A stretch of DNA of 64,000 nucleotides, taken from assembly GCF_018780565.1 (NCBI RefSeq), contig NZ_JADMJN010000013.1:9882-73881 (forward strand), in the 5' to 3' direction. Shown here piece by piece: positions 30,656-64,000 of this stretch (its first letter is position 1; each line of letters opens with the position of its first letter). The notes beneath the pieces were generated by a model that ran no database searches, was not told the DNA's origin, and was given only the letters and a program-made list of their open reading frames with translations. A program made the position numbers and the translations under genes. The stretch comes from Rhodoferax sp. (GTDB lineage: Bacteria; Pseudomonadota; Gammaproteobacteria; Burkholderiales; Burkholderiaceae_C).

Positions 30656-30896
30656 GGCGCTTGTAAGAGCGCACTGAAAAACGACCCTTTGGACGTTTTC
30701 GGGTGGCCCGAAGTGCCACCCAAAAGCCTAAAGGGGTTTTTCAGTGTCTTCTGACCCCGACTGCAGAAGATGCCTTGGTTCGGGTCACACGCAATGTGTG
30801 ACCGTCCGCCAATGATTGGTAGTGGCCAATCACCAAGAAATGACACACCAGTCGCCTAGGACCCCCAGGATTCCTTAGTCTTTGCCCGGAGATCTC

Positions 30897-35009: not shown

Positions 35010-35033
35010 GCACGGACAAGAAAAGGATTTAAC

Positions 35034-44904: not shown

Positions 44905-44980
44905 GGCCCGGTAGCTCAGTCGGTAGAGCAGAGGATTGAAAATCCTTGTGTCGGTGGTTCGATTCCGCCCCAGGCCACCA
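44905..44980 (+). tRNA. tRNA-Phe (GAA)
   Basis: Cloverleaf GGCCCGG-TA-GCTC..GAGC-A-GAGGA-TTGAAAA-TCCTT-GTGTC-GGTGG-TTCGATT-CCGCC-CCAGGCC-A-CCA. The anticodon is GAA. There is one C5:A68 acceptor mismatch (see findings). Confidence 0.9.
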
Positions 44981-45150
44981 TCTTTTCTTCTCAAACGATC
45001 CCAAGTTAGCTCAGAGTCCTTGTAAATCAAGGACTTAGCCTGAAAAGGCGGCTCAAGCGGTATCGTTTGATTCCACAACGTCCCGTTCTTGCGTGTACCC
45101 AACGGTGTACCCCAGACTGCTGTTTTTCATCAGTCTATTTTGGGTACACC

Positions 45151-46761: not shown

Positions 46762-46952
46762 GGCATGTCCTGATTCGTCGATGCCAGAAGGGTGCCGCAG
46801 AGTTCTTGCTGCGAGAACCCAGCGGAGCGTAGATTGGCGTTGCGCAGCGGATGATGGCAGTAGCTGTTTCTGCGTCGCAGGGTTGGGTTTACGTACGCCA
46901 GTGTGAGAAGATGGCGGAAAGGCACATGAATTCGATATTGAGAGGTGGAGAT

Positions 46953-47927: not shown

Positions 47928-47954
47928 CAAGCGACAACCAGGGATGATCAACGG

Positions 47955-50552: not shown

Positions 50553-50665
50553 AGTGGGATTTGGCCGCTTCAGCCAAAGTTTCGATGGGATGATTTTGAT
50601 ACGCCAAATCGGAGCTGGCTTCGCGCTTTCTTGCGCACGGCGCGTTTGCCACACCGATCTGCTTT

Positions 50666-51655
50666 TTGAGGAAGGAAACTACCCAAGTGAGCATCGATGA
50701 GGAAGACGGTACGATCATCCGATATACAAACAGCCAGCCCATTCGGTTGAGGAACGTAGTTTGTGTCTATTGCGGTGTGAGGCTTACCGACGGCAACTCC
50801 ACCAAGGAGCATGTGGTGGGACGCAGGTTCGTACCCCTTGGCAAGCTGGACGGGCAATGGAACCTGATTGTGGGGGCCTGTTCTCCGTGCAATACACGTA
50901 AGTCGGACCTGGAAGACGACATTGCGGCCGTGTCCATGCAACCTGATGTGTTCGGCCGCTATGCGGTTGCCGACGAAGCGCTTGTAGCGACGGCGAAGCG
51001 CAAAGCCGAGCGAAGCACAAGCCGCAAGACCAAAAAGCCGGTGAAAGAGAGTCAGGCTCGGCTCGCCGTTTCGGGGCAGCTCTCTCCAGTGCTGACGGCG
51101 GATTTTTCCTTTACCGGCCCACCGCAAATTGATGATCACCGAATTTTCGAGCTTGCCCGACATCACGTGATGGCCTTCTTCTTCCTCATTACCTATGATC
51201 GAAAGACTGAGAGGGGGTGGTGGTGGCCAGGTGAGTTCATGCCAATACTCCACGCGCGGCGATCTGACTGGGGCAATGTCTCCTGGATCGGGTTTATGCA
51301 GAACGTCTACCCTTGGGACATGAGAGTGCAAGCGGCGATTGCTGACGACTTCTTTCGATGCTCAATCCGCAAGCACCCGCAGGCCGAATGTTGGTCGTGG
51401 GCATTGGAATGGAATCAGCAGCACCGCATTGCGGGATTCCTGGGTGACAGGTCGGCCGCACAATCCATCGCAAACGGGATCCCCCCTGAGCAGGTGACGA
51501 CTGTATTCAACGAGCCTGGGCGCTATCTGCGTTTTCGGCATGATGTTCCGTTGGCTGAGCAGGACGATATCCTGTTCGCGCATCCGGATGACCAAGAACT
51601 TCCTTCAGCGGGTTCAGCGAGCGAGTCCGCTGCCCAGGCTAGCCAGGAAAACTGA
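50666..51655 (+). CDS. HNH-nuclease-motif protein with ~230-aa uncharacterised C-terminal region
   Basis: CVYCGVRLTDGNSTKEHVVGRRF...NLIVGACSPCNTRKSD fits a CxxC...H...N...CxxC beta-beta-alpha-metal pattern. TTG start at 50666 or GTG at 50687, after an AGGAAGG-like RBS. Confidence 0.65.
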   Translation: MRKETTQVSIDEEDGTIIRYTNSQPIRLRNVVCVYCGVRLTDGNSTKEHVVGRRFVPLGKLDGQWNLIVGACSPCNTRKSDLEDDIAAVSMQPDVFGRYAVADEALVATAKRKAERSTSRKTKKPVKESQARLAVSGQLSPVLTADFSFTGPPQIDDHRIFELARHHVMAFFFLITYDRKTERGWWWPGEFMPILHARRSDWGNVSWIGFMQNVYPWDMRVQAAIADDFFRCSIRKHPQAECWSWALEWNQQHRIAGFLGDRSAAQSIANGIPPEQVTTVFNEPGRYLRFRHDVPLAEQDDILFAHPDDQELPSAGSASESAAQASQEN

Positions 51656-51838
51656 AGCCTTGCTTTTGTTCCGTACCTCGCGGACGCCCAGAACGAATTT
51701 CGCTTTGTTGACGGAACACATCAGCGTATCCGGTGATTGTGAAACTAGAGCACGTCCGTGCAAGGCGACTCGGGAGGAAAAGAAGGATCCTTGACAAAGG
51801 TGGATAGATTCCATTTTTGTTTGTATGCGCCACGCGAG

Positions 51839-51867
51839 TTCGACATGTATCATGTGAGCCCTAATAC
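51839..51867 (+). promoter_or_regulatory. candidate sigma70 promoter for the Thoeris operon
   Basis: TTCGAC (51839-51844), a 17-nt spacer, then TAATAC (51862-51867). It sits in an AT-richer 238-nt gap. RBS GGGAGAG lies 6 nt before the ATG at 51894. Confidence 0.4.
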
Positions 51868-51893
51868 CAAAAATAGTACAGGGAGAGTGAGCA

Positions 51894-52391
51894 ATGGCGC
51901 GAAAGTGTTTTTTCAGTTTTCACTATGTACCCGACTGCGTTCGGGCGTCTCAGGTTCGACAGATCGGCACGATTGAAGGTAACCCACCAGCACGTGACAA
52001 CGACTGGGAAACGGTCGTCGGTGGTGGAGATGCCGCCATAAAGAAATGGATCGCCGGGCAGATGGAAGGCAAGACCTGTGCCATCGTGCTGATCGGCGGG
52101 AACACGGCTAATCGGAAGTGGATCAACCACGAGATTGTGCAGGCCTGGGACCGTGGTTTGGGCATCGTCGGGATTCGCATTCACGGCCTCAAGAATTTCG
52201 ATGGCAATACCGCCTCTCAGGGCGGTAATCCGTTCGACCACGTGACACACGGCACTTCCCAGAAAAAGCTCTCTTCCATTGTGAAGTGTTACACCCCTTC
52301 GGGTTCTGACAGTAAAGAGCGCTATGCGTGGATATCAAAAAACTTAGAGGCAGCCGTCGAGGAAGCAATCGCCATTCGCAAAGCCAACTAA
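51894..52391 (+). CDS. thsB: TIR-like (DUF1863-type) protein, ThsB-like 1
   Basis: KCFFSFHYVPD at the N-terminus, AIVLIGGNTANRKWINHEIVQAW with the conserved Glu, and a length of 165 aa. Confidence 0.7.
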   Translation: MARKCFFSFHYVPDCVRASQVRQIGTIEGNPPARDNDWETVVGGGDAAIKKWIAGQMEGKTCAIVLIGGNTANRKWINHEIVQAWDRGLGIVGIRIHGLKNFDGNTASQGGNPFDHVTHGTSQKKLSSIVKCYTPSGSDSKERYAWISKNLEAAVEEAIAIRKAN

Positions 52392-52412
52392 GCGACATTC
52401 AAGTGAGAGTCC

Positions 52413-53009
52413 ATGAAGCGCTGTAAGGCAACAACAAAAGCCGGACGGCGTTGCCTGAATGGGCAGCGGCCAGGCACCGACTTTTGTGCGGCCCATGCGA
52501 CAGAGATTTCCTCTGGTGAACTACTCGCCACCGCTGCCGGTGCGTTAATCGGCCACGCGTTGGTACCGGGTCTGGGTCTTGTTCTCGGTGGCTTGGCGGG
52601 GCACTCTTTTCGAAATGTGATGGGACCTGACGATATGACGAAAAAGCGTGTGTTCATCAGCTTCGACTTCGACAACGACCGCGTCTTACGGGACTTCATG
52701 CTGGGACAGGCGAAACTGCCCGACTCTCCATTTGAAGTCATCGATCACTCGCTCAAGGAAGCTGCTCCCGAACGGAACTGGGAGGCCAAGGCAAGGGCTG
52801 CGATTGCGCGGTCGGATGTCGTCATCGTCATGGTCGGCAACGCCACGCACCGCGCCAGCGGTGTTCTGAAGGAAATCGCAATGGCACGCGCTGCCGGCGT
52901 GCAGGTGGTGCAGGTCATTGGCTACAAGGACGGGGACTACACCCCTGTTCCGAATGCGGGCCGGCTTTATGCCTGGAATTGGCCTAACCTCAAGAAATTA
53001 CTGAGCTGA
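52413..53009 (+). CDS. thsB: TIR-like (DUF1863-type) protein with N-terminal Cys/His-rich basic motif and Gly-zipper hydrophobic segment, ThsB-like 2
   Basis: RVFISFDFDND and VVIVMVGNATHRASGVLKEIAMA form the TIR-like core. N-terminal KRCKATTKAGRRCLNGQRPGTDFCAAH is followed by LLATAAGALIGHALVPGLGLVLGGLAG. Confidence 0.65.
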   Translation: MKRCKATTKAGRRCLNGQRPGTDFCAAHATEISSGELLATAAGALIGHALVPGLGLVLGGLAGHSFRNVMGPDDMTKKRVFISFDFDNDRVLRDFMLGQAKLPDSPFEVIDHSLKEAAPERNWEAKARAAIARSDVVIVMVGNATHRASGVLKEIAMARAAGVQVVQVIGYKDGDYTPVPNAGRLYAWNWPNLKKLLS

Positions 53010-53013
53010 CCCC

Positions 53014-54453
53014 ATGCCTATCAATGAACTGGATGCCTTCGTCAGGGAATACGTCAAGGAACTTCATAATGAGACGGCTGCGATCTTTGCTGGCGCAGGC
53101 CTATCGGTGGGGAAGGGATTCGTCGATTGGGTTGGGCTTCTCCAACCACTGGCAGCTGAACTCGGCCTGGATGCTGCGCGTGAGAGCGATCATCTGGTCG
53201 CGCTTGCGCAGCACCACGTTAATGACAACGGCATGAACCGGGCCGGGCTGCACAAGCGACTGCTGGAGGAGTTCCCGACGGACGCGGAGCCTACGGTGAA
53301 TCATCAACTGTTGGCGCGGCTACCAGTGGCAGTCTACTGGACCACCAATTACGATCGACTGATTGAGCGTGCCTTGGAAGGGGCCGGAAAAATCGTTGAC
53401 TCGAAGCATCGGGTGGATCAGCTCGCCTTCACAAAACCACGCCGGGATGCGGTGGTTTTCAAGATGCACGGTGACGTCGAGCATCCGGCGCAAGTCGTGT
53501 TGACCAAGGACGATTACGAGCGCTACCCGATCGATCGAGGCGCGTTCATCAACGGGCTGACCGGTGACCTTGTCTCCAAGACCTTCCTGTTTCTTGGCTT
53601 TAGCTTCAAGGATCCTAACCTTGACTACATCCTGGCGAGAATTCGGCTCACCTTTCAAGCCAACGGACGCCAGCACTACTGTGTCTTTCGCCGCGTACAG
53701 GAGCAGGCTGGTCAGTCCCAGGCGGAGTACGAATATCTGCAAATCAAGCAACGCCTTGCCATCAATGACTTGAAGCGCTTCAACATCAAGACCTTGCTGG
53801 TCGACAGTTACGATGAGATCACGGAACTGTTGCGTCGCATCGAACGCACCTATCGCCGAAAGACGCTGTTCATTTCGGGCAGTGCTGAGGAGTTTGGTGC
53901 TTGGCAGAAAGCGGATGTTTCTGAGTTCCTCAACGACCTCGGGAAGATCGTCATCCAGCGGGGTTTTCGCCTTGTATCGGGCTTTGGCTGGGGCATCAGC
54001 AATGACCTATTGTCTGGCGCGATTGAACAGATCTATGGCCAACGGGTTGGGCACATTCAGGATCACCTGATTGTTCGCCCCTTCCCTCGCTATATCGCCG
54101 ATGTTGGCGCGCGCGACGCGCTGTGGCATGAGTTCCGCAAAGACCTCATTTCGCAGGCCGGCATCGCACTTTTCATGTTCGGTAACAAGTTGAGTGACGG
54201 CAAGACGGTCCTCGCGGACGGCGTGCGTAAGGAGTACGCCATCGCGCGGGAACTCGACCTGGTGACAGTACCCGTCGCCCCGACGGGTTATGTTGCCGAA
54301 GAGCTCTGGCAGCTCGACGAGCCACGCGTGAAATCATCCGCGATGAGTGAAGAAATCAAGCAGTCGTTCGCCAGACTTCAAGTGCCCGCAGCCAAACCCC
54401 AGGAACTGCTGAGCCGGATTTCTGAAGTATTGGATCTTCTTGGCAAGGAATGA
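53014..54453 (+). CDS. thsA: Thoeris effector ThsA (N-terminal SIR2 NADase, C-terminal SLOG sensor)
   Basis: SIR2_2 pattern AIFAGAGLSVGKGFVDW, WTTNYDRLIE (Asn at residue 112), VFKMHGD (His at residue 152) and FLFLGFSFKDPN. The C-terminal TLFISGSAEEFGAW...VSGFGWGISNDLLSGA is SLOG/LOG-like. Length 479 aa. Confidence 0.8.
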   Translation: MPINELDAFVREYVKELHNETAAIFAGAGLSVGKGFVDWVGLLQPLAAELGLDAARESDHLVALAQHHVNDNGMNRAGLHKRLLEEFPTDAEPTVNHQLLARLPVAVYWTTNYDRLIERALEGAGKIVDSKHRVDQLAFTKPRRDAVVFKMHGDVEHPAQVVLTKDDYERYPIDRGAFINGLTGDLVSKTFLFLGFSFKDPNLDYILARIRLTFQANGRQHYCVFRRVQEQAGQSQAEYEYLQIKQRLAINDLKRFNIKTLLVDSYDEITELLRRIERTYRRKTLFISGSAEEFGAWQKADVSEFLNDLGKIVIQRGFRLVSGFGWGISNDLLSGAIEQIYGQRVGHIQDHLIVRPFPRYIADVGARDALWHEFRKDLISQAGIALFMFGNKLSDGKTVLADGVRKEYAIARELDLVTVPVAPTGYVAEELWQLDEPRVKSSAMSEEIKQSFARLQVPAAKPQELLSRISEVLDLLGKE

Positions 54454-54502
54454 GCACCAGTGCGTCCTGATCACTTGCGACTGATGCAGTGAATTTCACC
54501 GT

Positions 54503-55078
54503 ATGGCGTTTGTAACCAAGCAGCTGGCGCGCAACGTGGCGCGCTCGTTGACAGCACAAAGTCCCGGCGGTTCACCTGGCGTTGTGTTGGAGGAGCGGAG
54601 ACAGCTGGCGGAAAAGGCTGGTACGTTTGATATTTTCTTGTCCCACGCTCGCGAGGATGCGGAGATTGTTCTGGGTGTCGTTGGTTTGCTGGAACTTCTT
54701 GGCAAAACGGTCTATGTTGACTGGATCAGCGATGTGCAACTGGACCGATCTAGGGTGACGCCCCTCCATGCCGACGTTTTGCGTTACCGCATGCGGTCGT
54801 CGGCGTCAATGCTGTATCTCACGACAGCCAACAGCGTGCAATCGATCTGGATGCCCTGGGAGCTTGGCTATTTCGACGGACACAAGCCTGGTCACGTGGC
54901 TATCTTGCCAGTCATGGAGAGTGGAGTGAGCTTTGAGGGGCAGGAATTTCTGGGTCTTTACCCGGTGATGGAATACGGCGTGGGTGCTGGGGCAGGCTAT
55001 AGCGACTGGTCGATTCCCGGGGGAAGTTCTGGGCGCATAAATCTTGACAGTTTTGTTGACGGAACACGCGCGGTTTAA
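54503..55078 (+). CDS. thsB: canonical TIR-domain protein, ThsB-like 3
   Basis: FDIFLSHAREDAEIV, TVYVDW, and SIWMPWELGYFDG with the conserved catalytic-position Glu. Confidence 0.7.
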   Translation: MAFVTKQLARNVARSLTAQSPGGSPGVVLEERRQLAEKAGTFDIFLSHAREDAEIVLGVVGLLELLGKTVYVDWISDVQLDRSRVTPLHADVLRYRMRSSASMLYLTTANSVQSIWMPWELGYFDGHKPGHVAILPVMESGVSFEGQEFLGLYPVMEYGVGAGAGYSDWSIPGGSSGRINLDSFVDGTRAV

Positions 55079-55469
55079 GGGCGAAGGCCATATGGTCTGT
55101 GCAGCGATAAACGCCAAGCCAATCGCGCGGAGTGGACGCGCACAGCATGCTGCTTAGTGCTGTTCGCATTTAATAAATAGTTGCCGAGACCAAGGTCTAG
55201 ACGGTAAGCGGTGTTTTGCCCTACTGTGAATGTGGACAACCTCTGGCTAGCTGCATCAGTTGCACCGTAGCTGGCAATGCATCTCGATGCCACTGGCATG
55301 CAGATCTTCAAATTTGGCAAGCATTCGCGGTAACGGACGGGATCTGCAATAGATGCCTGGCAGAAAGTGCGGCTTGGCAAGGTTCGTTTGAGAGATATCC
55401 TGATGGGCCCGACTATAACAACATACTGTAACATTGCCTGATTGTCCACAGGTGAGAAAAGCTAGCCCT

Positions 55470-56420
55470 ATGCACACTTGCCTGCCGCCAACAGATGCCA
55501 TCGAAGAATGGCTCAACTGCTACCCCTCTTTCAAAGGCAGCTACGGACATCTTCTCCTGGAGCAAAAAGAAGATCCACCTCCCGATTTGGCTGGTTCTCT
55601 GGTTCCGTATTTCGAGTCGGCACATGAGGATGCGCGTAAGTATTTCTCCGAGCAGATAGGGATCGATCTTCACCCAGATTCCGATGGCGTTCAGAACGAG
55701 GCTGAACTACTCTATCCCCGTTGTCTACCGGTGAGTGCACGGCGTGGACTTTTTGGCGAAGTGATGGCAGGAATGCTCACCGAACAGTACACCTACATCG
55801 GCAAGCACGAATGGGATGTTCCTATTTTTCTCTTTCGCTATCACGCAGATGTCGAAAAGTACCTGTTTGATCTCTCTCGCAACGATACGCGAACGCGGCA
55901 GGTATTTGGGCGTTTCGGATCGGACTTTCTTGGGCTGTGTCTGGACTACGAGGGAAATGTCATCCGTTTCATTGCGGGCGAGGCGAAATGGCGTGACAAG
56001 TTGAACGCCGGGACCATCGAGACATTGATGCTTGGAAGTTGGGTCACGGACCGCGAGACTGGTGAGCGTGCTCGATCAGGCAAGGGTGTATGGTTCGAGG
56101 TGAACCGTGATACGCCAGTTCCTCACGGCCTGAGGCAACTTCAGCGTTTGCTCCGAGAACGTGATCCCGGCGGCCACTCTGCTGCGATCTTGTCCCTCGA
56201 CAAAGCATTGGCACTGCGCAACCCCGTACCGATCCCACGAACCAATCTCATCTTGATCGCGGGGAACGATGTTCCGAGCCGTGACGAAAGGATGTCGCTC
56301 ATTCCGTGGCAAGAGATGCCGAAAGAGTACACCGCTCCAAACGACCTTCAGGTCGTAGAACTGATCCTCAAAGACGGCGGCGATCTGATCGACCAAATCT
56401 ACGACACTCTCTGGTCCTAG
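55470..56420 (+). CDS. hamA: Hachiman HamA-like protein (DUF1837-type, PD-(D/E)xK-like D...ExK)
   Basis: GSDFLGLCLDYEGNVIRFIAGEAKWRDK fits D-x(n)-ExK. The size of ~316 aa and its position 13 nt upstream of a large SF2 helicase also fit. The tracked start at 55434 is replaced by the ATG at 55470, which follows GAGAAAAG. Confidence 0.6.
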   Translation: MHTCLPPTDAIEEWLNCYPSFKGSYGHLLLEQKEDPPPDLAGSLVPYFESAHEDARKYFSEQIGIDLHPDSDGVQNEAELLYPRCLPVSARRGLFGEVMAGMLTEQYTYIGKHEWDVPIFLFRYHADVEKYLFDLSRNDTRTRQVFGRFGSDFLGLCLDYEGNVIRFIAGEAKWRDKLNAGTIETLMLGSWVTDRETGERARSGKGVWFEVNRDTPVPHGLRQLQRLLRERDPGGHSAAILSLDKALALRNPVPIPRTNLILIAGNDVPSRDERMSLIPWQEMPKEYTAPNDLQVVELILKDGGDLIDQIYDTLWS

Positions 56421-56433
56421 GAAATAAACAGAC

Positions 56434-59400
56434 ATGGCTGAGAATGACGGAGAACGCCTGGAGATCGCGAGCGAGGTTCGGAACGAGCTGGCCGTCGAAA
56501 ATGCCTTGTCGGCGACACAGGCTCGTGCGTTTGTGCGTTGCTTGCAAACGATCTGGGAGGTGCCGCCGATCCAGTGGGGCGACGAGGAGTCTCGCGCTCA
56601 GCTTGCCGACGTACGGCGCCTTCTTCACGCGGCGGAGATCTATCGACAGATCGAGGGATTGCAGTCTCCTGGAGCAATCGATTGCTATCGGCGTGCCGGC
56701 GAGCTGCTTGAGTGGCTCGCGCGCGCAAATGACAAACTTCGCCTGATTGCACCAATCGAACTGTTCGCCGCCGCCGCGCTTCAACTTGGTGGTCTGCCGG
56801 CTATGGCAGCCGGTCTGCTCCGGCAGGTCAACTTGGGCAATATGGGTTCGCAGCTATATGCCAAATTTTTGCAGGCGGATTTCGACGGTGTACTGAAAGC
56901 TGTCATGGCATTTTGGCACCAGCATGCTGACCTCACCGATCGCGATGCGCCGCGCAGGCTGCTCCTCGATACAGAAAATGAAGGCCATATTGGATGGTAT
57001 TTCACGACCGAACTTGTCCGCAGCCTGGGGTTAATCGCCGAGTCCCTGCGGCGAGGGAACAACGCCCGACTCACCCGCGCAATCGAGAAACTCGATGCGC
57101 TGGAGAAGATGGCTACCCGGACATTCAGCGATGACGCTTCGTTGCTCATCACGCTCATGCGCGCAGTCGCCTATAACTATCGCGAAGCTAGCATCTATCT
57201 TCCAGTGGATCAACTGGCGGAGGTGAATGCCGGCCGAAAACCGAGGTTGCTTCGCTTTGCACGTGGTCAATTCAGCCGCGGTCGCGGAATTCTTTGGCCC
57301 TCTCAGCGTGACGGATTGGCCCGTCTTTTGCGCAACTCATCCTTCGCCCTTTGTACGCCGACCGGCTCGGGCAAGACCCTGGTAGCCAATCTGGCGCTTG
57401 TGAAGGAGTTACTCCTCCGTCCAGACGAGGATGCTCCTGATCCCCTTGCCCTCTATTTGGTCCCTTCCCGGGCACTTGCTGGCGAAGTAGAGGCCAAGTT
57501 GCGAAGCGAACTCGGCGAAGACCTGATCGTGACCGGCCTCTATGGCGGGGCGGACTGGGGCATTACCGACTACTGGCTGACAGGTGAAAGGCCGACCGTC
57601 TTGATCGCTACGGTCGAGAAAGCCGATGCGTTAATGCGCTACGTGGGGCCACTCCTACTCGCGCGTCTTCGCCTGCTTGTGATCGACGAGGCGCATCAGG
57701 TCGTACCGGAAGACAACGATAGTACGCGTGCGGCATTTGCAGAACACAGCAGTAGATCACTTCGCCTGGAGGGATTTGTGTCGCGGCTGCTATCGCTGGC
57801 ACCCCATATCGCCCGAATCGCGCTGACCGCAGTAGCGGGTGGTGCTGCAACGCCGGTCGCCCGGTGGATTGAGGGGCGGCCCGACGCGGTGGCCGTTGGA
57901 ACGCGGTATCAAAGCACTCGCCAACTCATCGGTGTTCTCGAGACGTCGCCCGACCGCTCCAGCCGCATTCTGCTGGAGATCATGAACGGAAGGGCGCTGT
58001 ATGTGCGCGGTCGGGATGCACCGGTCTATCTGCCACTACGCATCCCCGCCATGCCGCAGCTTCCCGCTGTAATGCGCAATAGTCTGAATCGCTTCAATGA
58101 GTTGAGCGTGCTCTGGACGGTGCTGCATCTTGTGGATAACGAGCGAAGGATACTGATCTCAGTGGCTCAAGAGCCGGAACAGACGATGCGCTGGTACAGG
58201 GAGGCATTTGATCTTCCGTCGTGGGCCGCGCTTCCTCGTTTCGTCTCACCAGATGGTAGTCGAGGCGTGCGGTTCGATGAAGCGCGCGCCGCGGCCGTGG
58301 ATTATTGCGGAGCAGACTCCTATGAGGTCGCCCTGTTGGACAGGGGCATCGCAACGAGCCATGGTCAGATGCCTCAGCGGTTGCGCCGGCTGATGACTGA
58401 AATGATCGACCAACGCATCTGCCCAATCACGGTCGCCACGGCGACGCTGACGGAGGGCGTCAATCTTCCCTTTGATATGATCGTAGTGACGTCCTTGAAG
58501 CGGAGCTCCTTCGATCCGAACACCCAACGACCGATCATCACACCACTTTCGACTGCGGAATTTCGCAATCTCGCGGGTCGGGCGGGGCGCCCCGGTGCAA
58601 GCAAGGGGATGGAAGGCATGACCTTGATTGCCATACCGCAGAGCGTTTCCACTACGGCGGACTCGACGCGGGATACCCAGCGCGCTCAACGCCGGAATTT
58701 GATCGCCGACTACCGTTCCTTGCATGATCGACTGCTGAACGACGCAGGGGATGCTCAGGTTGTTTCCAGTCCGCTGAACCTGCTTCTGAATGCGATCGCC
58801 ACCCGCGCCGAGGAACTTTTTGGGGTGGCTGGAGAGGAATTTCTGGACTGGCTTGACGCGGCGACGCCAAATGAAATTAGTGGTGAAGCCGGTCGGGCCG
58901 AGACGGCGCCGCATGCGCGTCTGGCAGACAGCCTCGACGAGCTTGATGGGATTCTGCTGAGCGCCATTGAAGAACTGAACCAAGCACAGGCGCCAGAGAT
59001 GACTGGTGCCCGCGCCGAGGCACATCTAATTCAGCTGTGGCGGAAAACGTTCACGAACGTGGCTGCTGTGCAGGAAGCCTGGCTTGAGACGGCCTTCATT
59101 CGACGTGGTCGAGCTATGGTTGATGTAATTTATCCCGATGGCGATGAGCGAAAACGCCTATATCTCTATGGTTTTACCCCCCATGTCGGGCGACGCTTTG
59201 AGCAAGTAGCACAGCAGATACACAAACTGATAAACCGAGCAGGCGGCTATGGCGAAGCTACCAACACGGACCGGTTGACCGTATTTGAAGAGATAGGCGC
59301 GCTCGTATCCGAGGATCGTGGCTTTGGTTTTCGCATTCGCCCGACAGAGACAGATCAGCGCCTTTTGGACGACTGGACTGGCTTGCTGAAGTGGTGGATG

Positions 59401-60063
59401 CAAGGCACGGACGCGGAGTCTCCTCCACCCAATAAACTACGCGCCTGGCAACGATTCGTCACAGAAAACCTGGAGTTTCGCCTGGGAGTGGCCATTGGTG
59501 CTGTGGTTGCCAGGGCGTGGACCGCCGGCGCGAACGATCCGTCGGCAGTGCCAACGCTCATTGCTTGGCGAGCCACGACAGGCCTGCCATGGTTTGGTTT
59601 TTGGGCTCGCGAGCTACTACGATGGGGCACGTTGGACCCATTCGTTGCATTCGCGCTTGCCCAGGGATTGGCAAGAACTCGCAACGAAGCCGCGGAGCGT
59701 CGCCCTGAATTTGAAGGTTGGCTCAATGAGGAACACGTAGCCTTGGAGGCCGATGACATGATTGATCCACAGCTGTTTCTCGAGTGGCAGCTCAGCCTGC
59801 AGCAGCCCAATGTAGGAGAGGAAGCCGGGCAGGAAGCCGAGCTTGCGGTGTTGACTGGTGCGGACGGACGATTGACGCGCTATGGCGTTGTCCCATTTCG
59901 GCAGGGAGATACCATTCATTGGATGGATGCGGCGGGCTACGAGCTCGCGACGTCAGGCAATGAAACTGGTTTTTTTTCTCCGAGTGCCAATCGCAACGAT
60001 TTCGAGCTGCGAGTTCGGCGTCGTAGCGCATCGGTAACGCGCACCTTTACGGCTCAGCGCTAG
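56434..60063 (+). CDS. hamB: large superfamily-2 helicase, HamB-like, with ~300-aa N-terminal and ~475-aa C-terminal extensions
   Basis: Motif I CTPTGSGKT (residues 307-315), motif II VIDEAH (416-421, nt 57679) and motif VI LAGRAGRPG (713-721). Length 1209 aa. Confidence 0.7.
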   Translation: MAENDGERLEIASEVRNELAVENALSATQARAFVRCLQTIWEVPPIQWGDEESRAQLADVRRLLHAAEIYRQIEGLQSPGAIDCYRRAGELLEWLARANDKLRLIAPIELFAAAALQLGGLPAMAAGLLRQVNLGNMGSQLYAKFLQADFDGVLKAVMAFWHQHADLTDRDAPRRLLLDTENEGHIGWYFTTELVRSLGLIAESLRRGNNARLTRAIEKLDALEKMATRTFSDDASLLITLMRAVAYNYREASIYLPVDQLAEVNAGRKPRLLRFARGQFSRGRGILWPSQRDGLARLLRNSSFALCTPTGSGKTLVANLALVKELLLRPDEDAPDPLALYLVPSRALAGEVEAKLRSELGEDLIVTGLYGGADWGITDYWLTGERPTVLIATVEKADALMRYVGPLLLARLRLLVIDEAHQVVPEDNDSTRAAFAEHSSRSLRLEGFVSRLLSLAPHIARIALTAVAGGAATPVARWIEGRPDAVAVGTRYQSTRQLIGVLETSPDRSSRILLEIMNGRALYVRGRDAPVYLPLRIPAMPQLPAVMRNSLNRFNELSVLWTVLHLVDNERRILISVAQEPEQTMRWYREAFDLPSWAALPRFVSPDGSRGVRFDEARAAAVDYCGADSYEVALLDRGIATSHGQMPQRLRRLMTEMIDQRICPITVATATLTEGVNLPFDMIVVTSLKRSSFDPNTQRPIITPLSTAEFRNLAGRAGRPGASKGMEGMTLIAIPQSVSTTADSTRDTQRAQRRNLIADYRSLHDRLLNDAGDAQVVSSPLNLLLNAIATRAEELFGVAGEEFLDWLDAATPNEISGEAGRAETAPHARLADSLDELDGILLSAIEELNQAQAPEMTGARAEAHLIQLWRKTFTNVAAVQEAWLETAFIRRGRAMVDVIYPDGDERKRLYLYGFTPHVGRRFEQVAQQIHKLINRAGGYGEATNTDRLTVFEEIGALVSEDRGFGFRIRPTETDQRLLDDWTGLLKWWMQGTDAESPPPNKLRAWQRFVTENLEFRLGVAIGAVVARAWTAGANDPSAVPTLIAWRATTGLPWFGFWARELLRWGTLDPFVAFALAQGLARTRNEAAERRPEFEGWLNEEHVALEADDMIDPQLFLEWQLSLQQPNVGEEAGQEAELAVLTGADGRLTRYGVVPFRQGDTIHWMDAAGYELATSGNETGFFSPSANRNDFELRVRRRSASVTRTFTAQR

Positions 60064-60097
60064 TTTTGGCGGCGGTCTCATCGTTTCTCCGTATCAC

Positions 60098-62467
60098 ATG
60101 AAACATAGCACGTACAGCTCTGACGATAGGACTAATCCGATTGCGATCGCAAAGCCGACGACTGCTAAACCAATCGACAACGAGACGCTCAAACGACTCG
60201 TTGCGCCGTTTGCAGGACAGAGTCGGGCGCAATGTTTTTTTGGACCCTCCGGTATCGGCGACGATGGGGCCGCTTGGCTCGTCATCGTGACCGCAGATGA
60301 ACAACGGCCGCGACAAGTCCGCGAAGACGGACGGTTTGGCCTTTGGGCTTGGCGATGGCCGGCGGCTCCGACCGCTGCGCTATCCTTCTCACTAATGGCA
60401 CCCAAAGGAACGTCGCAGCCGAAGGAAAAGACATTTCCACGGTGGTTTGGGTCAAGCGATACAGCACTCGCGCAGGTCATCCGATGCGAGAAACGCCTTC
60501 TCGTCATCGTGGTAAATACTTTTGGCGATCACAGTGGCTGGTTCGAGGCTGTCTTTGCCCAGGCGGACACCGCAGCTGCCTTTGACAGGCTATGGGAGCA
60601 CCCGGACGCTGGTCTTCCAAGGTCACGCATCGGTCGACGGTTCGATCCGGACGCCGAAGAATCAATGGACGATATCTATGTACCGATCCCTTTGTGGAAG
60701 GAACCGGTCTCTGACATTTGGGCCGTGATCACGCATGGCGACAAGCAGAACTGGGTGTCCGATTTGCAGCCAGCCGACTGGGCCTGCGGACTTTGGGCAA
60801 AGCGGGCATTGCACGTGCGGACCAAAGCTGCTGGCGATATCCAGATTCTTCGCGACCGTCAAGAACTCGACGGGGTGCCACCGATCGTGGACGAGACAGG
60901 ACTGTGGATTCGCAATGAACCGATGCGGGAACGACTGAACTTCATCGGCGAACTTCATCCATTGCTCAAACCATGGTTTGCTGCGACGCTTGGGCCGCAA
61001 CTGGATGCCAGAAGGTCCTACGAAATCGCCCTCGAAATCTTGTGTACACCGAAGGCCATGTTCGAAGTCGTGTCGGGGCTGCACCATGTGCTTCATGCGT
61101 GCGAAGAAGACGATGCTCTCATGCCGCTATGGCGCACCCTCGACGCGGCGCTGCTCGATACCGCCATAACGGCCAAAGGAACGCGTCGCCCTTGGCTTGC
61201 CAACACAGGTTTTCAGCTGGAGATCAGGACGATACCGATCGACATGAACGCGGATCTGGATGACATTGAGCGGCTTTGGCAAGCAGGACTCCAGATCCAT
61301 CATTTGCTCGATGCAGGAGAGCGCATAGGGTCGTCTGACTTTCCGGCTCCGTGGGACGTGCTAACAAGTGCCATGGAGAATGTTTTCATCGAGGGGACAC
61401 AAGAGGATGGCTATGCCAAGGTACAGGCCTTACTGCAAGAGGCTCAGGAAGCGCGGCAGTGGTCCATCCCCTGGGGCGCGCGTGTTGAGGTCGCTTTCGG
61501 TCCCTTTGTGGCCCTGAAGATATTTGAGCGCGAAGGTGAGTTCTCCTGCCATTTTCTCGATGCCCAGGACCGTTACCTTCTCTTGCCAATCGGTTTGCAA
61601 GGCCGACCACCGAAGATCGGCGAGGTGGGCATCTTTCGCAAGCGTTCCGACGACGGTGCGTACATGTGGAACCATGATGCCGAGATTGCCTTGTGCCTAA
61701 TTGCGGCTGCGATAGTTCGAGACTTCCTGGTAGTGGAAGACAGGACGTCACTGTTCAACGTGCGATCTATGCGTCGTCGGCTGCGAGGTGGACGTAACGT
61801 AAACGACATCGTCTATCTGCCACGCGTAAGGTACACGACCCCGTACCCAGAGCGAATGACCTTGGACGATGCCGATAAAACCCGGGCGCGTCATCAGGTC
61901 TCGCCACATCTCCGGAAAGCGGGCACTGCTTCAACGGGCCAACGCTTCCTTGCCCAGCGCTACGGCATGGAGTTGCCGGCAGGATTTACTTTCGTGCGGC
62001 CGCATGAGCGCGGCACAGAGTCTGGGGAGGTGCGCGTCAAGATCTATCGAAGCAGATCCGCATCCAGAATGATTTTCGAGGAGATGGCCAAGGCGCCGGA
62101 AGGAAGTAGGCCGGAATGGTTTGAGTTCGAGAAAGATTGTGCGCGCATTCTGCGGGGTCAAGGCATGCGAGTTGTCCATCAGGCTGCCAACCGCTCTGGC
62201 GATCTCGGGGTCGATCTTTACGCCGTTGACGCTACGGGGCAGTCCTGGGTCGTGCAATGCAAGTGCTGGGCGAAGCACCGACCCGTTGGACCTGATGTCG
62301 TCCGCGAACTGGTGGGCGCTATTGCCTCATCCGATCGTGGCATGACGACCAACAGTCGCGGCATGATCATCACCGCCGGTAGTTTCACTAGCGGTGCGGT
62401 GAGCGAGGCTATCGCCAATGGATTTGAACTAGTCGACGGTATTCGCGTCGCACAACTTCTTGAGTGA
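60098..62467 (+). CDS. 789-aa protein: uncharacterised N-terminal ~650 aa fused to C-terminal Mrr-type restriction endonuclease domain
   Basis: The C-terminus FEKDCARILRGQGMRVVHQAANRSGDLGVDLYAV...WVVQCKCW...GMIITAGSFTSGA matches the Mrr_cat pattern (GDxGxD...QxK). I found no Walker A, helicase or methylase motif upstream. It starts 34 nt after the hamB stop. Confidence 0.7.
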   Translation: MKHSTYSSDDRTNPIAIAKPTTAKPIDNETLKRLVAPFAGQSRAQCFFGPSGIGDDGAAWLVIVTADEQRPRQVREDGRFGLWAWRWPAAPTAALSFSLMAPKGTSQPKEKTFPRWFGSSDTALAQVIRCEKRLLVIVVNTFGDHSGWFEAVFAQADTAAAFDRLWEHPDAGLPRSRIGRRFDPDAEESMDDIYVPIPLWKEPVSDIWAVITHGDKQNWVSDLQPADWACGLWAKRALHVRTKAAGDIQILRDRQELDGVPPIVDETGLWIRNEPMRERLNFIGELHPLLKPWFAATLGPQLDARRSYEIALEILCTPKAMFEVVSGLHHVLHACEEDDALMPLWRTLDAALLDTAITAKGTRRPWLANTGFQLEIRTIPIDMNADLDDIERLWQAGLQIHHLLDAGERIGSSDFPAPWDVLTSAMENVFIEGTQEDGYAKVQALLQEAQEARQWSIPWGARVEVAFGPFVALKIFEREGEFSCHFLDAQDRYLLLPIGLQGRPPKIGEVGIFRKRSDDGAYMWNHDAEIALCLIAAAIVRDFLVVEDRTSLFNVRSMRRRLRGGRNVNDIVYLPRVRYTTPYPERMTLDDADKTRARHQVSPHLRKAGTASTGQRFLAQRYGMELPAGFTFVRPHERGTESGEVRVKIYRSRSASRMIFEEMAKAPEGSRPEWFEFEKDCARILRGQGMRVVHQAANRSGDLGVDLYAVDATGQSWVVQCKCWAKHRPVGPDVVRELVGAIASSDRGMTTNSRGMIITAGSFTSGAVSEAIANGFELVDGIRVAQLLE

Positions 62468-62647
62468 TGCTAGACGAAGTCTTCAGCTTGAAGCCGCCAT
62501 CGGTCTGTTATTTCATCACCCTGGGGAAACGGAGCTCATTCTTTTTCAACAAACGAAGCGCGTTGAGCCTCATGGGTCTACCATGTTTTAACTCCAACAG
62601 CATCTCCGCATTTGCTGCGGGTTTGCTCCCTACGCTTTACCTCAACT

Positions 62648-62967
62648 GGTGCGTCCCGGCACATTGTGCCAGGCAGGCTCTACGGGTTGCACCCCGAGCC
62701 AGGCTGCGCCCGTCTCGGCCATTCGGCTTCGATCCCTCACGCCTCCGGCCTTTTGGGCCTGCGCGCTGCGCTTGCCGTAAGGCGGTGGTGCTGGGTGTGT
62801 GGGTCTGGCTTGCTGTTCCCTTCACCATATCACGGCGTTCTCGCTGTCAAGGTCTGCGCGCACGGTGTGCGCTTGCGTCCTGGCGGCCGTCTTTGAACCT
62901 GTGACAACTGCGCTGCGTCGTGCTGATGCCGGTCTCGGGCAATCCCGCCCGATGCACGGAGCTGACC
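62648..62967 (+). repeat. structured leader repeat, copy A (upstream of radC)
   Basis: It aligns along ~320 nt with copy B at 63655-63983; I estimate about 70 percent identity by eye. Shared blocks are GCGTCCCGGC, GATCCCT(C/G)ACGCCTC, CTGCGCTTGCC, CACGGCG..CTCGC.GTCAAGG.CTGCGCGC, GGGCAAT.CCGCCCGA, and GGAG 7-9 nt before the ATG. Confidence 0.8.
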
Positions 62968-63498
62968 ATGTCGCACGATCTCTTTTCTTCTTTCGCTTCT
63001 TTCGATTCCTCCACTTCTTCTGTCCTTCTCGTTCGTGACGTGGCGGGCGACTACCGTCAGGTTGATGCCGACGAGGTGCTGCAGGCTGCGCAGCAGGTGT
63101 TGCTGGGTCGGGTGCGTGGTAGTGATGTGCTGGCTTCGCCGCAGGCGGTGCGCGATTTCTTGCGGGTCAAACTGGGGACGCTGGAGCATGAGGTGTTCGC
63201 GGTGGTGCATCTGGATACGCAGAACCGCGTCATTGGATACGTCGAAATGTTTCGCGGCACGGTGAGCCAGACATCGGTCTATCCCCGAGAGGTGGTAAAG
63301 GAATCCATGATGCACAACTCGGCGGCCTTGCTGCTGGTGCACAACCACCCGAGTGGTTCGACCCAGCCGTCCCGGGCCGATGAACATCTGACGCAGACGT
63401 TGAAGGCAGCGCTGTCGTTGGTGGACGTGCGGGTGCTGGATCACCTGATCGTCGCGGGCAGTGACATCCTGTCGATGGCCGAACGCGGGCTGATGTGA
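62968..63498 (+). CDS. radC: RadC-like JAB/MPN domain protein
   Basis: JAMM motif LLLVHNHPSGSTQPSRADEHLT. The ATG at 62968 is preceded by GGAG. Confidence 0.9.
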   Translation: MSHDLFSSFASFDSSTSSVLLVRDVAGDYRQVDADEVLQAAQQVLLGRVRGSDVLASPQAVRDFLRVKLGTLEHEVFAVVHLDTQNRVIGYVEMFRGTVSQTSVYPREVVKESMMHNSAALLLVHNHPSGSTQPSRADEHLTQTLKAALSLVDVRVLDHLIVAGSDILSMAERGLM

Positions 63499-63502
63499 CC
63501 CA

Positions 63503-63521
63503 GGGGCTTTGCCCCTTTTTT
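63503..63521 (+). terminator. rho-independent terminator after radC
   Basis: GGGGC-TTT-GCCCC is followed by TTTTTT, starting 5 nt after the stop codon. Confidence 0.8.
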
Positions 63522-63654
63522 GCTTCGCCCTTGGTGCAGGGGAAAGACTGCGCGCTGTGCGTGCCCTCCAGGGGTGGATTCTCTCGTGAAAGGGCATGTC
63601 GACCACGCGTCACAACGGCACCGAGCAATGTTTTTGCCCCAGGGCTTGAGAGAA

Positions 63655-63983
63655 GGTGTGGCGTCCCGGCGTTGCCGCCGTCGGGCTCGCGGGCGTTGCC
63701 CCACGCCTCGTGTCGAGTCGCGGCCATGTGGCTTTGATCCCTGACGCCTCTGGCCTCTACTTCGTTCCCGGCCTGCGCACTGCGCTTGCCCATGCGTGAC
63801 TTCGATGAAGGTGGGTTGGGCGGTCTTGCTGTGTCCCTTTACCGTACCACGGCGTGCTCGCCGTCAAGGGCTGCGCGCCTCTGGCGCTTGCGGCCCGTGG
63901 CCGTCTGCGACCCCTGACTGCTTGCGCTGCGCCGTGCTGGCGTCGGTTCCGGGCAATTCCGCCCGAGTAACCGGAGAGCAACC
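63655..63983 (+). repeat. structured leader repeat, copy B (upstream of next gene)
   Basis: Paralogue of 62648-62967. It ends at an ATG (63984) preceded by GGAGAG, in the same relative position as the radC start in copy A. Confidence 0.8.
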
Positions 63984-64000
63984 ATGAACGACAAATCACA
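63984..64000 (+). CDS. start of an unidentified gene truncated by the window end (MNDKS...)
   Basis: The ATG sits in the same position relative to leader copy B as the radC ATG does relative to copy A. RBS is GGAGAG. Only 5 codons are visible. Confidence 0.35.

What the first reader, a model, noticed from the sequence alone, without database searches (positions are those of the whole stretch)
60098..62467. Orphan 789-aa protein with an unrecognisable ~650-aa N-terminal region fused to an Mrr-type nuclease, directly behind Hachiman
Seen: a long ORF on the same strand starts 34 nt after the hamB stop, with no terminator hairpin in the gap. The last ~120 aa (about 62115-62464) carry the Mrr_cat signature SGDLGVDLYAV ... 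VVQCKCW ... IITAGSFTSGA. The preceding ~650 aa contain no Walker A, helicase, methyltransferase, HTH or repeat motif that I can recognise. One striking basic segment is present: VYLPRVRYTTPYPERM...RARHQVSPHLRKAG...GFTFVRPHERG. Established: Mrr-type PD-(D/E)xK domains are frequent effector modules of restriction and abortive-infection systems, and canonical Hachiman has only two genes (hamA, hamB). Inference: this is either a third component of an expanded Hachiman variant or a single-gene defence system whose sensor domain is undescribed.
Basis: partly seen in the sequence, partly recalled or inferred. Interest (0 to 1): 0.7.

Follow-up and report, generated by a model that had tools for sequence, protein, structure and literature searches.

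The report
Stand-alone Mrr nuclease with novel sensor
The gene behind Hachiman is real, but it is not an orphan: it belongs to a widespread, uncharacterised family of about 750-800-residue proteins that join a large, previously undescribed N-terminal region to an Mrr-type DNA-cutting domain, that move as single genes between defence islands and mobile elements, and that probably act as a self-contained anti-phage or anti-plasmid nuclease.

Summary
The 789-aa ORF (60098-62467, +) exists as described. It starts 34 nt after hamB, with no terminator-like site in the gap. It ends in an Mrr_cat PD-(D/E)xK domain (aa 673-788, E 1.8e-21) with E678/D706/Q720/K722 intact.

The first 670 aa match nothing in Pfam, NCBIfam, PADLOC or PHROGs. 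A confident AlphaFold model (pLDDT 90.7, pTM 0.89) gives no Foldseek hit outside the nuclease.

It is not an orphan. At least 336 clusters at 50% identity share the architecture, across Beta-, Gamma- and Deltaproteobacteria and Planctomycetota. The best-conserved part is a basic ~215-aa core (aa 433-647), not the nuclease. That core also occurs, without a nuclease, in a small family of phage proteins (hhalign 99.4%).

In 113 loci no partner gene is conserved. DNA similarity to the 81%-identical relative stops at the ORF borders. Neighbours vary: Lamassu-like, DISARM, Iet, Old-like and Wadjet genes, prophages, ICEs and plasmids. Hachiman-like genes flank it in only 3 of 93 informative loci, in both orders.

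Verdict: a solo, mobile defence-island nuclease with an undescribed sensor/DNA-binding apparatus, not a dedicated third Hachiman gene. Function is untested.

The parts
60098..62467 (+). Complete ORF, 789 aa plus stop (RefSeq WP_296699778.1, 'restriction endonuclease', Rhodoferax sp.)
   Evidence: ORF list. Full-length homologues align from about aa 14 to the end. Exact-sequence look-up.
60064..60097 (+). 34-nt gap between the hamB stop and the ATG. It holds no terminator-like or sigma-70-like site and no clear Shine-Dalgarno sequence.
   Evidence: Sequence; promoter/terminator scan. Co-transcription with hamAB is inferred, not shown.
60137..60592 (+). Domain A (aa 14-165): alpha/beta domain, fast-evolving (16% mean pairwise identity across the superfamily), no known relative
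   Evidence: AlphaFold models; regional identity; no Pfam or Foldseek hit.
60698..61177 (+). Domain B (aa 201-360): all-helical domain, fast-evolving (15% identity), no known relative
61178..61393 (+). Domain C1 (aa 361-432): small beta/alpha connector with invariant G361 and near-invariant W394
61394..62038 (+). Conserved core module (aa 433-647). Order of elements: helix 435-451, antiparallel sheet 461-524, helix 526-545 (RDFxVVEER), hairpin 553-575 (VYLPRVRY), then two V-x-P-H-x-R hairpins (aa 601-606 and 633-638) around helix 613-621. The part from aa 546 on is strongly basic (pI about 11). This is the most conserved part of the family, and it is shared with nuclease-less phage proteins.
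   Evidence: Invariant and near-invariant residues D542, Y573, R606, T631, H599, H636, R638. Regional identity. Charge. hhalign of the phage family A8 against A3: 99.4%, E 3.3e-21, over aa 433-647.
62039..62113 (+). Linker (aa 648-672) holding the invariant Y-R-S-R-S-A motif (S652 and S654 are 100% conserved). The motif is specific to the nuclease-fused family and absent from the phage homologues.
62114..62461 (+). Mrr_cat PD-(D/E)xK nuclease domain (aa 673-788) with catalytic E678, D706, Q720-x-K722
   Evidence: Pfam Mrr_cat 1.8e-21. Residue conservation 97/91/83/86% in the superfamily. Foldseek hits to the nuclease domains of MspJI, EndoMS/NucS, AspBHI and AF1548.

Best explanation
This is a self-contained, horizontally mobile, single-gene immune nuclease. 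Its position behind Hachiman reflects defence-island packing, not membership of Hachiman.

Proposed working model. Steps 1-3 rest on data; steps 4-6 are inference.
1. The C-terminal Mrr-type PD-(D/E)xK domain is catalytically competent and is the effector that cuts DNA.
2. It is always preceded, at fixed spacing, by an ultra-conserved basic ~215-aa core plus a YRSRSA linker.
3. The N-terminal ~430 aa (domains A, B, C1) belong to the same architecture but evolve fast.
4. The basic core binds nucleic acid and positions or gates the nuclease.
5. The fast-evolving N-terminal domains set what is recognised. No methyltransferase partner is conserved. The most likely mode is therefore direct recognition of a feature of invading DNA (a modification or a structure), as in type IV/Mrr- and MspJI-like enzymes, followed by cleavage.
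6. A double-strand break probably requires self-association of two or more protomers.

In this window the gene is probably read through from the hamAB promoter, but it functions on its own.
For: Nuclease intact:
- Mrr_cat 76.9 bits.
- E678/D706/Q720/K722 are present and conserved.
- The closest solved folds are the nuclease domains of MspJI (8e-5), EndoMS (7e-4) and AspBHI (3e-3).

Fixed architecture:
- 62 of 64 diverse members carry Mrr_cat.
- 79 of 81 core-bearing ORFs in 80 metagenome loci carry Mrr directly after the core.
- The model is compact and confident: pLDDT 90.7, pTM 0.89.

Core is the most constrained part:
- 54% identity in aa 599-640 against 41% for Mrr and 15-16% for domains A and B.
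- The core is basic.

Solo cassette:
- No conserved neighbour in 24 and then in 113 loci.
- blastn similarity to the 81% relative is limited to 60170-62441.

Defence and mobile-element context:
- The window island sits at tRNA-Phe with a P4-type integrase and carries Iet, Thoeris and Hachiman.
- Lamassu-like LmuB plus integrase/AlpA.
- P2-like prophage hotspot with TIR, HNH, Schlafen/AlbA and Old-like genes.
- DISARM DrmABC (assigned to L016, directly upstream, from the sizes and order of its ORFs).
- IetAS directly upstream.
- JetD with a Tn7-like element; GmrSD_N and ParDE.
- ICE relaxase, T4CP and RadC; Ralstonia plasmids.

No methyltransferase partner is conserved.
Against: - No experiment exists. 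Defence is inferred from context only, and that context was surveyed qualitatively, without a genome-wide background.
- Some distant members sit among housekeeping genes.
- No known modification-reader fold (SRA, PUA/EVE, winged helix, SBD) was found in the N-terminal region. The 'type IV-like' step is therefore an analogy.
- A 670-aa recognition region is far larger than in known type IV enzymes.
- The core's invariant His/Arg/Ser/Thr/Asp set could be a second active site or a ligand pocket rather than a DNA-binding surface.
- Hachiman-like genes adjoin the gene in 3 of 93 informative loci. This is somewhat more than my rough guess of about 1% for a random island gene.
Confidence: 0.55

Rival explanations
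1. Infection-triggered (abortive or Shedu-like) nuclease. The N-terminal domains sense a phage protein or another infection cue rather than a DNA feature. In uninfected cells the core and linker keep the Mrr domain auto-inhibited. On triggering, the enzyme degrades DNA indiscriminately.
For: - Domains A and B evolve very fast (15-16% identity) next to a conserved core and effector, as expected for an arms race with phage proteins.
- The compact model (pTM 0.89) is compatible with an auto-inhibited resting state.
- A stand-alone nuclease with no methyltransferase must be restrained somehow.
- Phage genomes carry nuclease-less homologues of the core that could be decoys.
Against: - There is no NTPase, oligomerisation or second-messenger-binding domain.
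- Close relatives (81-84% identity) show uniform divergence along the protein rather than N-terminal hypervariability.
- The basic module next to the nuclease is also explained by plain DNA binding.
Confidence: 0.2
2. Accessory or third component of Hachiman (or, more broadly, an add-on nuclease that works with helicase/ATPase-based systems). It would be co-transcribed with hamAB and recruited to DNA that HamB has processed.
For: - Same strand, 34-nt gap, no terminator.
- Hachiman-like pairs adjoin family members in two further loci. In L044 the order is X, then a HamA-like 265-aa ORF (21% identity over the full length, E 3e-4), then a helicase of at least 891 aa (25% identity to HamB, E 4e-15). 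In L045 the order is X, about 930 nt, then a HamA N-terminus 51% identical to the window's.
- Elsewhere the gene lies directly beside other ATPase or helicase systems: LmuB-like, DrmABC, IetAS and Old-like.
Against: - 90 of 93 informative loci have no Hachiman.
- The order relative to hamAB is not conserved.
- The nearest relative (81% identity) has a different neighbour, and its DNA homology ends at the ORF borders.
- The protein is not HamC/DUF3223.
- HamA already supplies the nuclease of Hachiman (PMC11914072 abstract).
- Many loci lie on plasmids or ICEs with no defence helicase nearby.
Confidence: 0.08
3. Selfish function of the mobile element rather than phage defence. Examples: exclusion or destruction of competing plasmids/ICEs, post-segregational stabilisation, or a DNA-processing role in element transfer.
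For: - Several homologues lie next to relaxase/NikA, TrbL, RepA_C, T4CP, ParAB or replication genes on ICEs and Ralstonia plasmids.
- RadC, which also lies near the ICE transfer genes in L029, follows the gene in the window.
Against: - The position is not fixed relative to transfer or replication genes, and no conserved partner such as an antitoxin exists.
- Many loci are prophage or chromosomal defence islands without conjugation genes.
- Mobile elements routinely carry bona fide defence systems.
Confidence: 0.1

Closest known systems
Type IV / modification-dependent restriction enzymes with Mrr-like nuclease domains (EcoKMrr; MspJI, AspBHI)
   Same: - A single polypeptide with a C-terminal Mrr-type PD-(D/E)xK domain (D...QxK) and no cognate methyltransferase.
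- The best Foldseek hits of the full model are MspJI (8e-5) and AspBHI (3e-3).
- PADLOC mREase_IV matches the nuclease part.
   Different: - The matches cover only the nuclease domain. With the N-terminal 671 aa alone as query, neither MspJI nor any SRA or winged-helix reader appears.
- The recognition region is about 670 aa in four or five domains with no known fold, against 100-270 aa reader domains in known enzymes.
- Modification dependence is untested.
Shedu (SduA), a single-protein immune nuclease with diverse N-terminal sensor domains
   Same: The logic is the same: one protein, a PD-(D/E)xK-superfamily effector, a variable N-terminal part and a conserved C-terminal part, resident in defence islands (bioRxiv 10.1101/2023.08.10.552793 abstract).
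   Different: - The nuclease is Mrr_cat, not DUF4263, and no Shedu model matches in PADLOC.
- Here the N-terminal domains are homologous throughout the family rather than swapped. The architecture is fixed.
Hachiman type II accessory protein HamC (DUF3223)
   Same: An extra gene found next to hamAB in a minority of systems (PMC8565338).
   Different: - HamC carries DUF3223 and has an NTF2-like topology. This protein has no DUF3223 or HamC match.
- It occurs without Hachiman in about 97% of informative loci.
PADLOC candidate PDC-S02 and the Mrr-type effector modules of Lamassu (LmuA) and Zorya (ZorD)
   Same: They share the Mrr_cat effector domain. PDC-S02, LmuA and ZorD profiles hit aa about 673-788.
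   Different: The profile matches stop at the nuclease. None covers aa 1-670, and the family is absent from PADLOC-DB v2 as a full-length model.
Uncharacterised phage protein family P0225-P0233 (about 360-470 aa; IMG/VR contigs)
   Same: It shares the ~215-aa core (RDxxVV.ER, LPR, H.V...R, GYTFVRPH.RG). hhalign gives 99.4%, E 3.3e-21, over aa 433-647.
   Different: - No Mrr domain, no YRSRSA linker, and unrelated N-termini.
- Encoded in phage replication/early-gene neighbourhoods.
- Function unknown.

Membership tests
Mrr_cat (PF04471) PD-(D/E)xK nuclease superfamily | Profile match above Pfam's gathering score | tested here: met
   76.9 bits against a cutoff of 21, aa 673-788, profile positions 5-115 of 115.
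Mrr_cat (PF04471) PD-(D/E)xK nuclease superfamily | Catalytic E...D...(Q/E)xK residues present | tested here: met
   E678, D706, Q720 and K722 are present. They are conserved in 44 of 46 close homologues and in 83-97% of 102 distant homologues.
Mrr_cat (PF04471) PD-(D/E)xK nuclease superfamily | Metal-dependent DNA cleavage | not testable with these tools
   Needs purified protein.
Hachiman (as a third component / HamC) | HamC is a DUF3223 protein | tested here: not met
   No DUF3223 or HamC hit in Pfam or PADLOC. Definition taken from PMC8565338.
Hachiman (as a third component / HamC) | Conserved co-occurrence with hamA-hamB | tested here: not met
   Hachiman-like genes adjoin the gene in 3 of 93 informative loci, in both orders. 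The 81% relative has a Lamassu-like neighbour instead.
Type IV (modification-dependent) restriction enzymes | Nuclease without a cognate methyltransferase | tested here: met
   No conserved neighbour of any kind in 113 loci.
Type IV (modification-dependent) restriction enzymes | Recognisable modified-base reader domain (Mrr_N winged helix, SRA, PUA/EVE/YTH, SBD) | tested here: not met
   No Pfam hit in 64 diverse members. No Foldseek hit with E<0.05 for aa 1-671 in PDB or BFVD.
Type IV (modification-dependent) restriction enzymes | Cleavage depends on DNA modification | not testable with these tools
   Needs in vitro or in vivo assays on modified and unmodified DNA.
Shedu | DUF4263 nuclease core | tested here: not met
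   Only Mrr-type nuclease models match.
Defence-island gene (guilt by association) | Homologues recurrently flanked by known defence systems and mobile-element hallmarks | tested here: inconclusive
   Qualitatively met. Iet/Thoeris/Hachiman, Lamassu-like, DISARM, Iet, Old-like, Wadjet JetD, GmrSD_N and SBD-HNH/NERD neighbours, plus prophage, ICE, plasmid and integrase contexts. No background statistic could be computed, and some loci are housekeeping-like.

The most novel reading that the evidence does not exclude
The invariant, basic ~215-aa core (aa 433-647) is a new nucleic-acid- or modification-sensing fold that gates an Mrr nuclease. This would define a new single-protein immune nuclease family. 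The nuclease-less copies of the same core in phage early-gene regions would be dominant-negative decoys that poison or occupy the host enzyme, making a matched defence/anti-defence pair built from one domain.
Probability: 0.12. Interest if true: 0.75.

Novelty: new variant of a known kind. Interest (0 to 1): 0.5.

Why it matters
If the gene protects on its own, it adds a widespread single-gene system to the defence catalogue. At least 336 clusters at 50% identity carry it, in Burkholderia, Ralstonia, Pseudomonas and many environmental lineages, on plasmids, ICEs and prophages.

About 670 residues of recognition machinery have no known fold. The invariant basic core is shared with phage proteins. 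That offers a tractable entry point to a new way of sensing foreign DNA and to a possible phage counter-measure.

There is also a practical point. Every source name seen for the family here is either a plain 'restriction endonuclease' (or Mrr) label or 'hypothetical protein', and it is missing from PADLOC-DB v2. Defence-system censuses built on that library therefore overlook it.

For Hachiman biology the result is mainly negative. This is not an expanded Hachiman, although the three adjacency cases deserve a proper statistical check.

Tried and rejected
1. Pfam, NCBIfam, PADLOC and PHROGs on the full protein and on 64 diverse members. Only nuclease-domain models hit.
2. Foldseek of the aa 1-671 model against PDB and BFVD. 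The best E-values were 0.12 and 0.056, which is noise (GPCRs, BAR domains, p32). The full-length model hits nuclease domains only.
3. Profile of the whole family, and of the core alone, against PDB sequences. The result was nothing, or a chance 27-residue match to AvrM14 at E 0.13. The core against Pfam at E<=10 gave noise only.
4. Internal duplication or a degenerate second nuclease. hhalign of domains A, B, C and D against the Mrr domain gave at most 7% probability.
5. Domain D as an AbrB/MazE swapped-hairpin domain, an idea drawn from its beta-beta-alpha-beta-beta pattern and the two VxPHxR repeats. hhalign probability was 0.2%.
6. HamC identity: rejected.
7. END nucleases (iEndoIII fusions, PMC12191111): a different architecture.
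8. A conserved small upstream partner gene. The upstream genes differ between loci (232 aa, 190 aa, DUF5677, and others) and have no PADLOC hits. They do not cluster in all-vs-all comparisons.
9. Alternative effectors fused to the core: none found, since 79 of 81 ORFs carry Mrr. Of the two short 'core+Mrr' proteins checked on long contigs, one is flanked by IS transposases and is probably a disrupted remnant, and the other follows an unannotated 225-aa ORF and may be a fragment of a split gene.
10. Literature search for six accession numbers of family members: 0 papers.
11. Rfam on 59000-64000, for the repeated element downstream: no match.
Full report
**Observation**

The ORF list gives a 789-aa frame at 60098..62467 on the + strand. 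HamB (56434..60063) ends 34 nt upstream. A consensus scan finds no terminator-like or promoter-like site in that gap. The only upstream promoter-like site lies at 55374-55401, just before hamA. The number of such sites in the region equals the chance expectation, so this carries little weight.

Pfam places Mrr_cat at aa 673-788 (E 1.8e-21, 76.9 bits against a cutoff of 21) and nothing else. PADLOC, NCBIfam and PHROGs add only nuclease-level matches.

PADLOC confirms HamB (7e-50). HamA is supported only weakly (3e-4). The physical description is therefore correct.

**Not an orphan**

A word-indexed search of 5.8 billion proteins returned 57 clusters. Nearly all are 790-810 aa, cover 97-100% of the query at 41-84% identity, and are named 'restriction endonuclease' in Rhodoferax, Burkholderia, Paraburkholderia, Ralstonia and Variovorax.

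An exhaustive HMMER scan with only aa 1-671, so without the nuclease, found 336 clusters at 50% identity with E<=1e-3, and 245 with E<=1e-10.

The window protein is identical to RefSeq WP_296699778.1 (789 aa). The GenBank MAG record starts 99 residues later. Conservation from residue ~14 onward supports the long form.

A scan of species-representative genomes found 19 loci. They come from Methylococcales, Pseudomonas, Nevskia, Roseateles, Ramlibacter, Noviherbaspirillum, Gallionellaceae, Hydrogenophilales, Kofleriaceae, a deltaproteobacterium and a Planctomycetota MAG. Four Ralstonia plasmids also carry the gene. No sequenced phage carries the full gene.

**Anatomy**

AlphaFold2 with 102 sequences gives a compact model (mean pLDDT 90.7, pTM 0.89). 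It contains the following parts.
- Domain A, aa 14-165, alpha/beta.
- Domain B, aa 201-360, helical.
- Connector C1, aa 361-432.
- A core, aa 433-647. Its elements in order are a helix (435-451), an antiparallel sheet (461-524), a long helix ending in RDFxVVEER (526-545), a hairpin carrying VYLPRVRY (553-575), and a small beta-beta-alpha-beta-beta unit. In that unit two V-x-P-H-x-R hairpins (601-606, 633-638) flank helix 613-621.
- A linker carrying YRSRSA, aa 648-672.
- The Mrr domain.

Mean pairwise identity across 102 superfamily members by region:

| Region | Identity |
|---|---|
| Domain A | 16% |
| Domain B | 15% |
| aa 435-545 | 31% |
| aa 599-640 | 54% |
| Mrr domain | 41% |

The small His/Arg-rich unit is thus more constrained than the nuclease. 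D542, Y573, R606, T631, S652 and S654 are invariant. E678, D706, Q720 and K722 are kept in 97, 91, 83 and 86% of members, and all four are present here. Residues 546-672 are strongly basic, with pI about 10-11.

**No known relative for the N-terminal 670 aa**

- Foldseek of the aa 1-671 model (pLDDT 81.5) found nothing below E 0.05 in PDB or BFVD.
- The full-length model hits only nuclease domains: MspJI 8e-5, EndoMS/NucS 7e-4, AspBHI 3e-3, AF1548, Card1/Can2.
- Sixty-four divergent members show only Mrr-type Pfam domains and only nuclease-level PADLOC hits.
- Profiles of the family and of the core find nothing in PDB sequences or Pfam.
- The N-terminal domains are not degenerate copies of the nuclease.
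- The small unit is not detectably AbrB-like.

**The core is a separate evolutionary module**

A scan of IMG/VR found phage-contig proteins of about 400-470 aa that match only aa ~530-648. They form a small family with no Pfam domain.

Profile-profile comparison aligns that family to aa 433-647 at 99.4% probability, E 3.3e-21. These proteins lack the Mrr domain and the YRSRSA motif. One of them lies in a phage replication/early module with a helicase, DnaG, DnaB, DUF1064 and DUF932.

In the bacterial family the core is essentially always followed by Mrr: 62 of 64 members, and 79 of 81 ORFs. No other effector fusion was found. Two apparent 'mini' versions were checked. One lies between two IS transposase genes, and the other follows an unannotated 225-aa ORF. 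They look like remnants or fragments rather than a distinct short form.

**Genomic context**

In the window, tRNA-Phe (44905-44980) is followed by a P4-type integrase (45067-46446). Then come IetA/IetS, a Thoeris locus (ThsB, a ThsB-like gene, ThsA, ThsB), HamA/HamB, this gene and RadC, all on the + strand. This is an integrated defence island next to rpoBC.

Family members elsewhere sit in these contexts.

| Locus | Context |
|---|---|
| L023 (81% identical) | Directly behind a 587-aa plus LmuB-like 1034-aa pair; integrase and AlpA nearby |
| B. gladioli | P2-like prophage hotspot between a Schlafen/AlbA gene and an Old-like ATPase, with TIR and HNH genes |
| Noviherbaspirillum (L016) | DrmA/B/C match strongly among the pooled flanking ORFs. 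I assign them to the 1338-, 621- and 262-aa ORFs directly upstream of the gene here, from their sizes and order |
| Planctomycetota MAG | Directly behind IetA/IetS |
| L030 | Beside JetD and a Tn7-like element, followed by a second 308-aa Mrr_cat gene |
| L027 | Near GmrSD_N and ParDE |
| ICEs | Next to relaxase/NikA, T4CP and RadC |
| Ralstonia plasmids | Behind a DUF5677 gene |

Some loci look housekeeping-like.

All-vs-all comparison of flanking ORFs was done in 24 and then in 113 loci, of which 93 have informative flanks. Only two things recur: the identical Ralstonia element and an integrase family. blastn between the window and L023 aligns 60170-62441 only, inside the ORF, so the gene moves alone.

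**Hachiman linkage**

tblastn with the window's HamA and HamB found nothing in the first 30 or so loci. It found two cases among the 80 metagenome loci.
- L044: the family member (48% identical) is followed on the same strand by a 265-aa HamA-like ORF, which aligns end to end with the window's HamA (21% identity, E 3e-4). Next comes a helicase of at least 891 aa (25% identical to HamB over 489 aa, E 4e-15).
- L045: a C-terminal fragment of the family member is followed, about 930 nt later, by a HamA N-terminus 51% identical to the window's.

Adjacency therefore occurs in 3 of 93 informative loci, with the order reversed in two of them and with different Hachiman subtypes. This rules out an obligate component. 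My rough expectation for a random island gene is about 1%. That figure comes from my own knowledge and was not computed. A weak preference therefore remains possible and needs statistics. HamC, the known extra Hachiman gene, is a DUF3223 protein (PMC8565338) and is unrelated.

**Interpretation**

The evidence best supports a self-contained, mobile, single-gene nuclease system.

Shown:
- an intact Mrr nuclease;
- a fixed multi-domain architecture;
- an ultra-conserved basic core shared with phage proteins;
- solo mobility;
- frequent defence-island and mobile-element context;
- no methyltransferase partner.

Inferred:
- the core binds nucleic acid and gates the nuclease;
- the fast-evolving N-terminal domains set specificity;
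- the target is invading DNA, recognised directly as in type IV enzymes. A cue-triggered, Shedu-like mode is the main alternative.

**Novelty and score**

The effector and the general logic are familiar. The 670-aa front end and the core module are undescribed in every library searched, and the family is absent from PADLOC-DB v2. Uncharacterised defence-island nucleases are common, and nothing here is experimentally anchored. I rate it a new variant of a known kind, with interest 0.5.

Noticed in passing
window 44905-46446: tRNA-Phe (44905-44980) is followed directly by a P4-type tyrosine integrase (45067-46446; Arm-DNA-bind_3, Phage_int_M, Phage_integrase). This marks the left end of an integrated island that runs past the window end. 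rpoB/rpoC (30882-39251) lie just upstream. No attR was looked for.
   Followed up: partly
window 46851-55078: The island also carries a complete Iet system (IetA 46851-47927, E 2e-153; IetS 47955-50552, E 0). It further carries a type I Thoeris locus with three TIR-like genes around ThsA: ThsB 51894-52391, a weak ThsB-like gene 52413-53009, ThsA 53014-54453 and ThsB 54503-55078.
   Followed up: partly
window 55434-56420: The HamA here is very divergent. It has no Pfam DUF1837 hit and only a 35-residue PADLOC HamA match (E 3e-4). Its assignment rests mainly on its position before a clear HamB.
   Followed up: no
window 62630-62975 and 63640-63990: There are two copies of a ~340-nt non-coding element (mean column identity 82% in the pairwise alignment). 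Each ends at the ATG of a gene: the first at an in-frame ATG at about 62968 within the listed RadC ORF (62920-63498), the second at an ORF starting at 63985. Rfam has no match. It may be a repeated regulatory or leader element of the integrative element.
   Followed up: partly
window 60098-60394: The GenBank MAG annotation (MBT9508373.1, 690 aa) starts the gene 99 codons too late and cuts into conserved domain A. RefSeq (WP_296699778.1) has the 789-aa form.
   Followed up: yes
L033 1149-2363; L035 800-2224; L034 6876-8147; proteins P0225-P0233: A small family of phage-contig proteins (about 360-470 aa, no Pfam domain) shares only the ~215-aa core of the bacterial nuclease family and has no nuclease domain. 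One lies in a phage replication/early-gene module (L037).
   Followed up: partly
L030 12393-13319 (also L010 12360-13283): In one lineage the family member is followed, 14 nt downstream on the same strand, by a second, short (308-aa) Mrr_cat protein. The pair lies inside a Tn7-like (TniB/TniQ) element next to a Wadjet jetD.
   Followed up: no
L032 9076-9930 (also L031, L008, L009 and metagenome loci L058-L065): In Ralstonia plasmids and chromids a DUF5677 protein gene ends 17 nt before the family member. A 704-aa integrase and ParAB lie upstream. The identical element turns up in several unrelated metagenomes, which may reflect Ralstonia contamination.
   Followed up: no
L044 2556-6005; L045 1787-1969: Two metagenome loci have Hachiman-like genes immediately downstream of the family member, the reverse of the window's order. 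Including the window, that is 3 of 93 informative loci. Whether this exceeds chance was not tested.
   Followed up: partly
L039 115-8492: A 259-aa remnant of the family (core end plus Mrr) is flanked on both sides by IS transposases. It lies in an island that also holds a NERD protein, a ScoMcrA-type SBD-HNH protein, a second HNH_2 protein and PemK.
   Followed up: no
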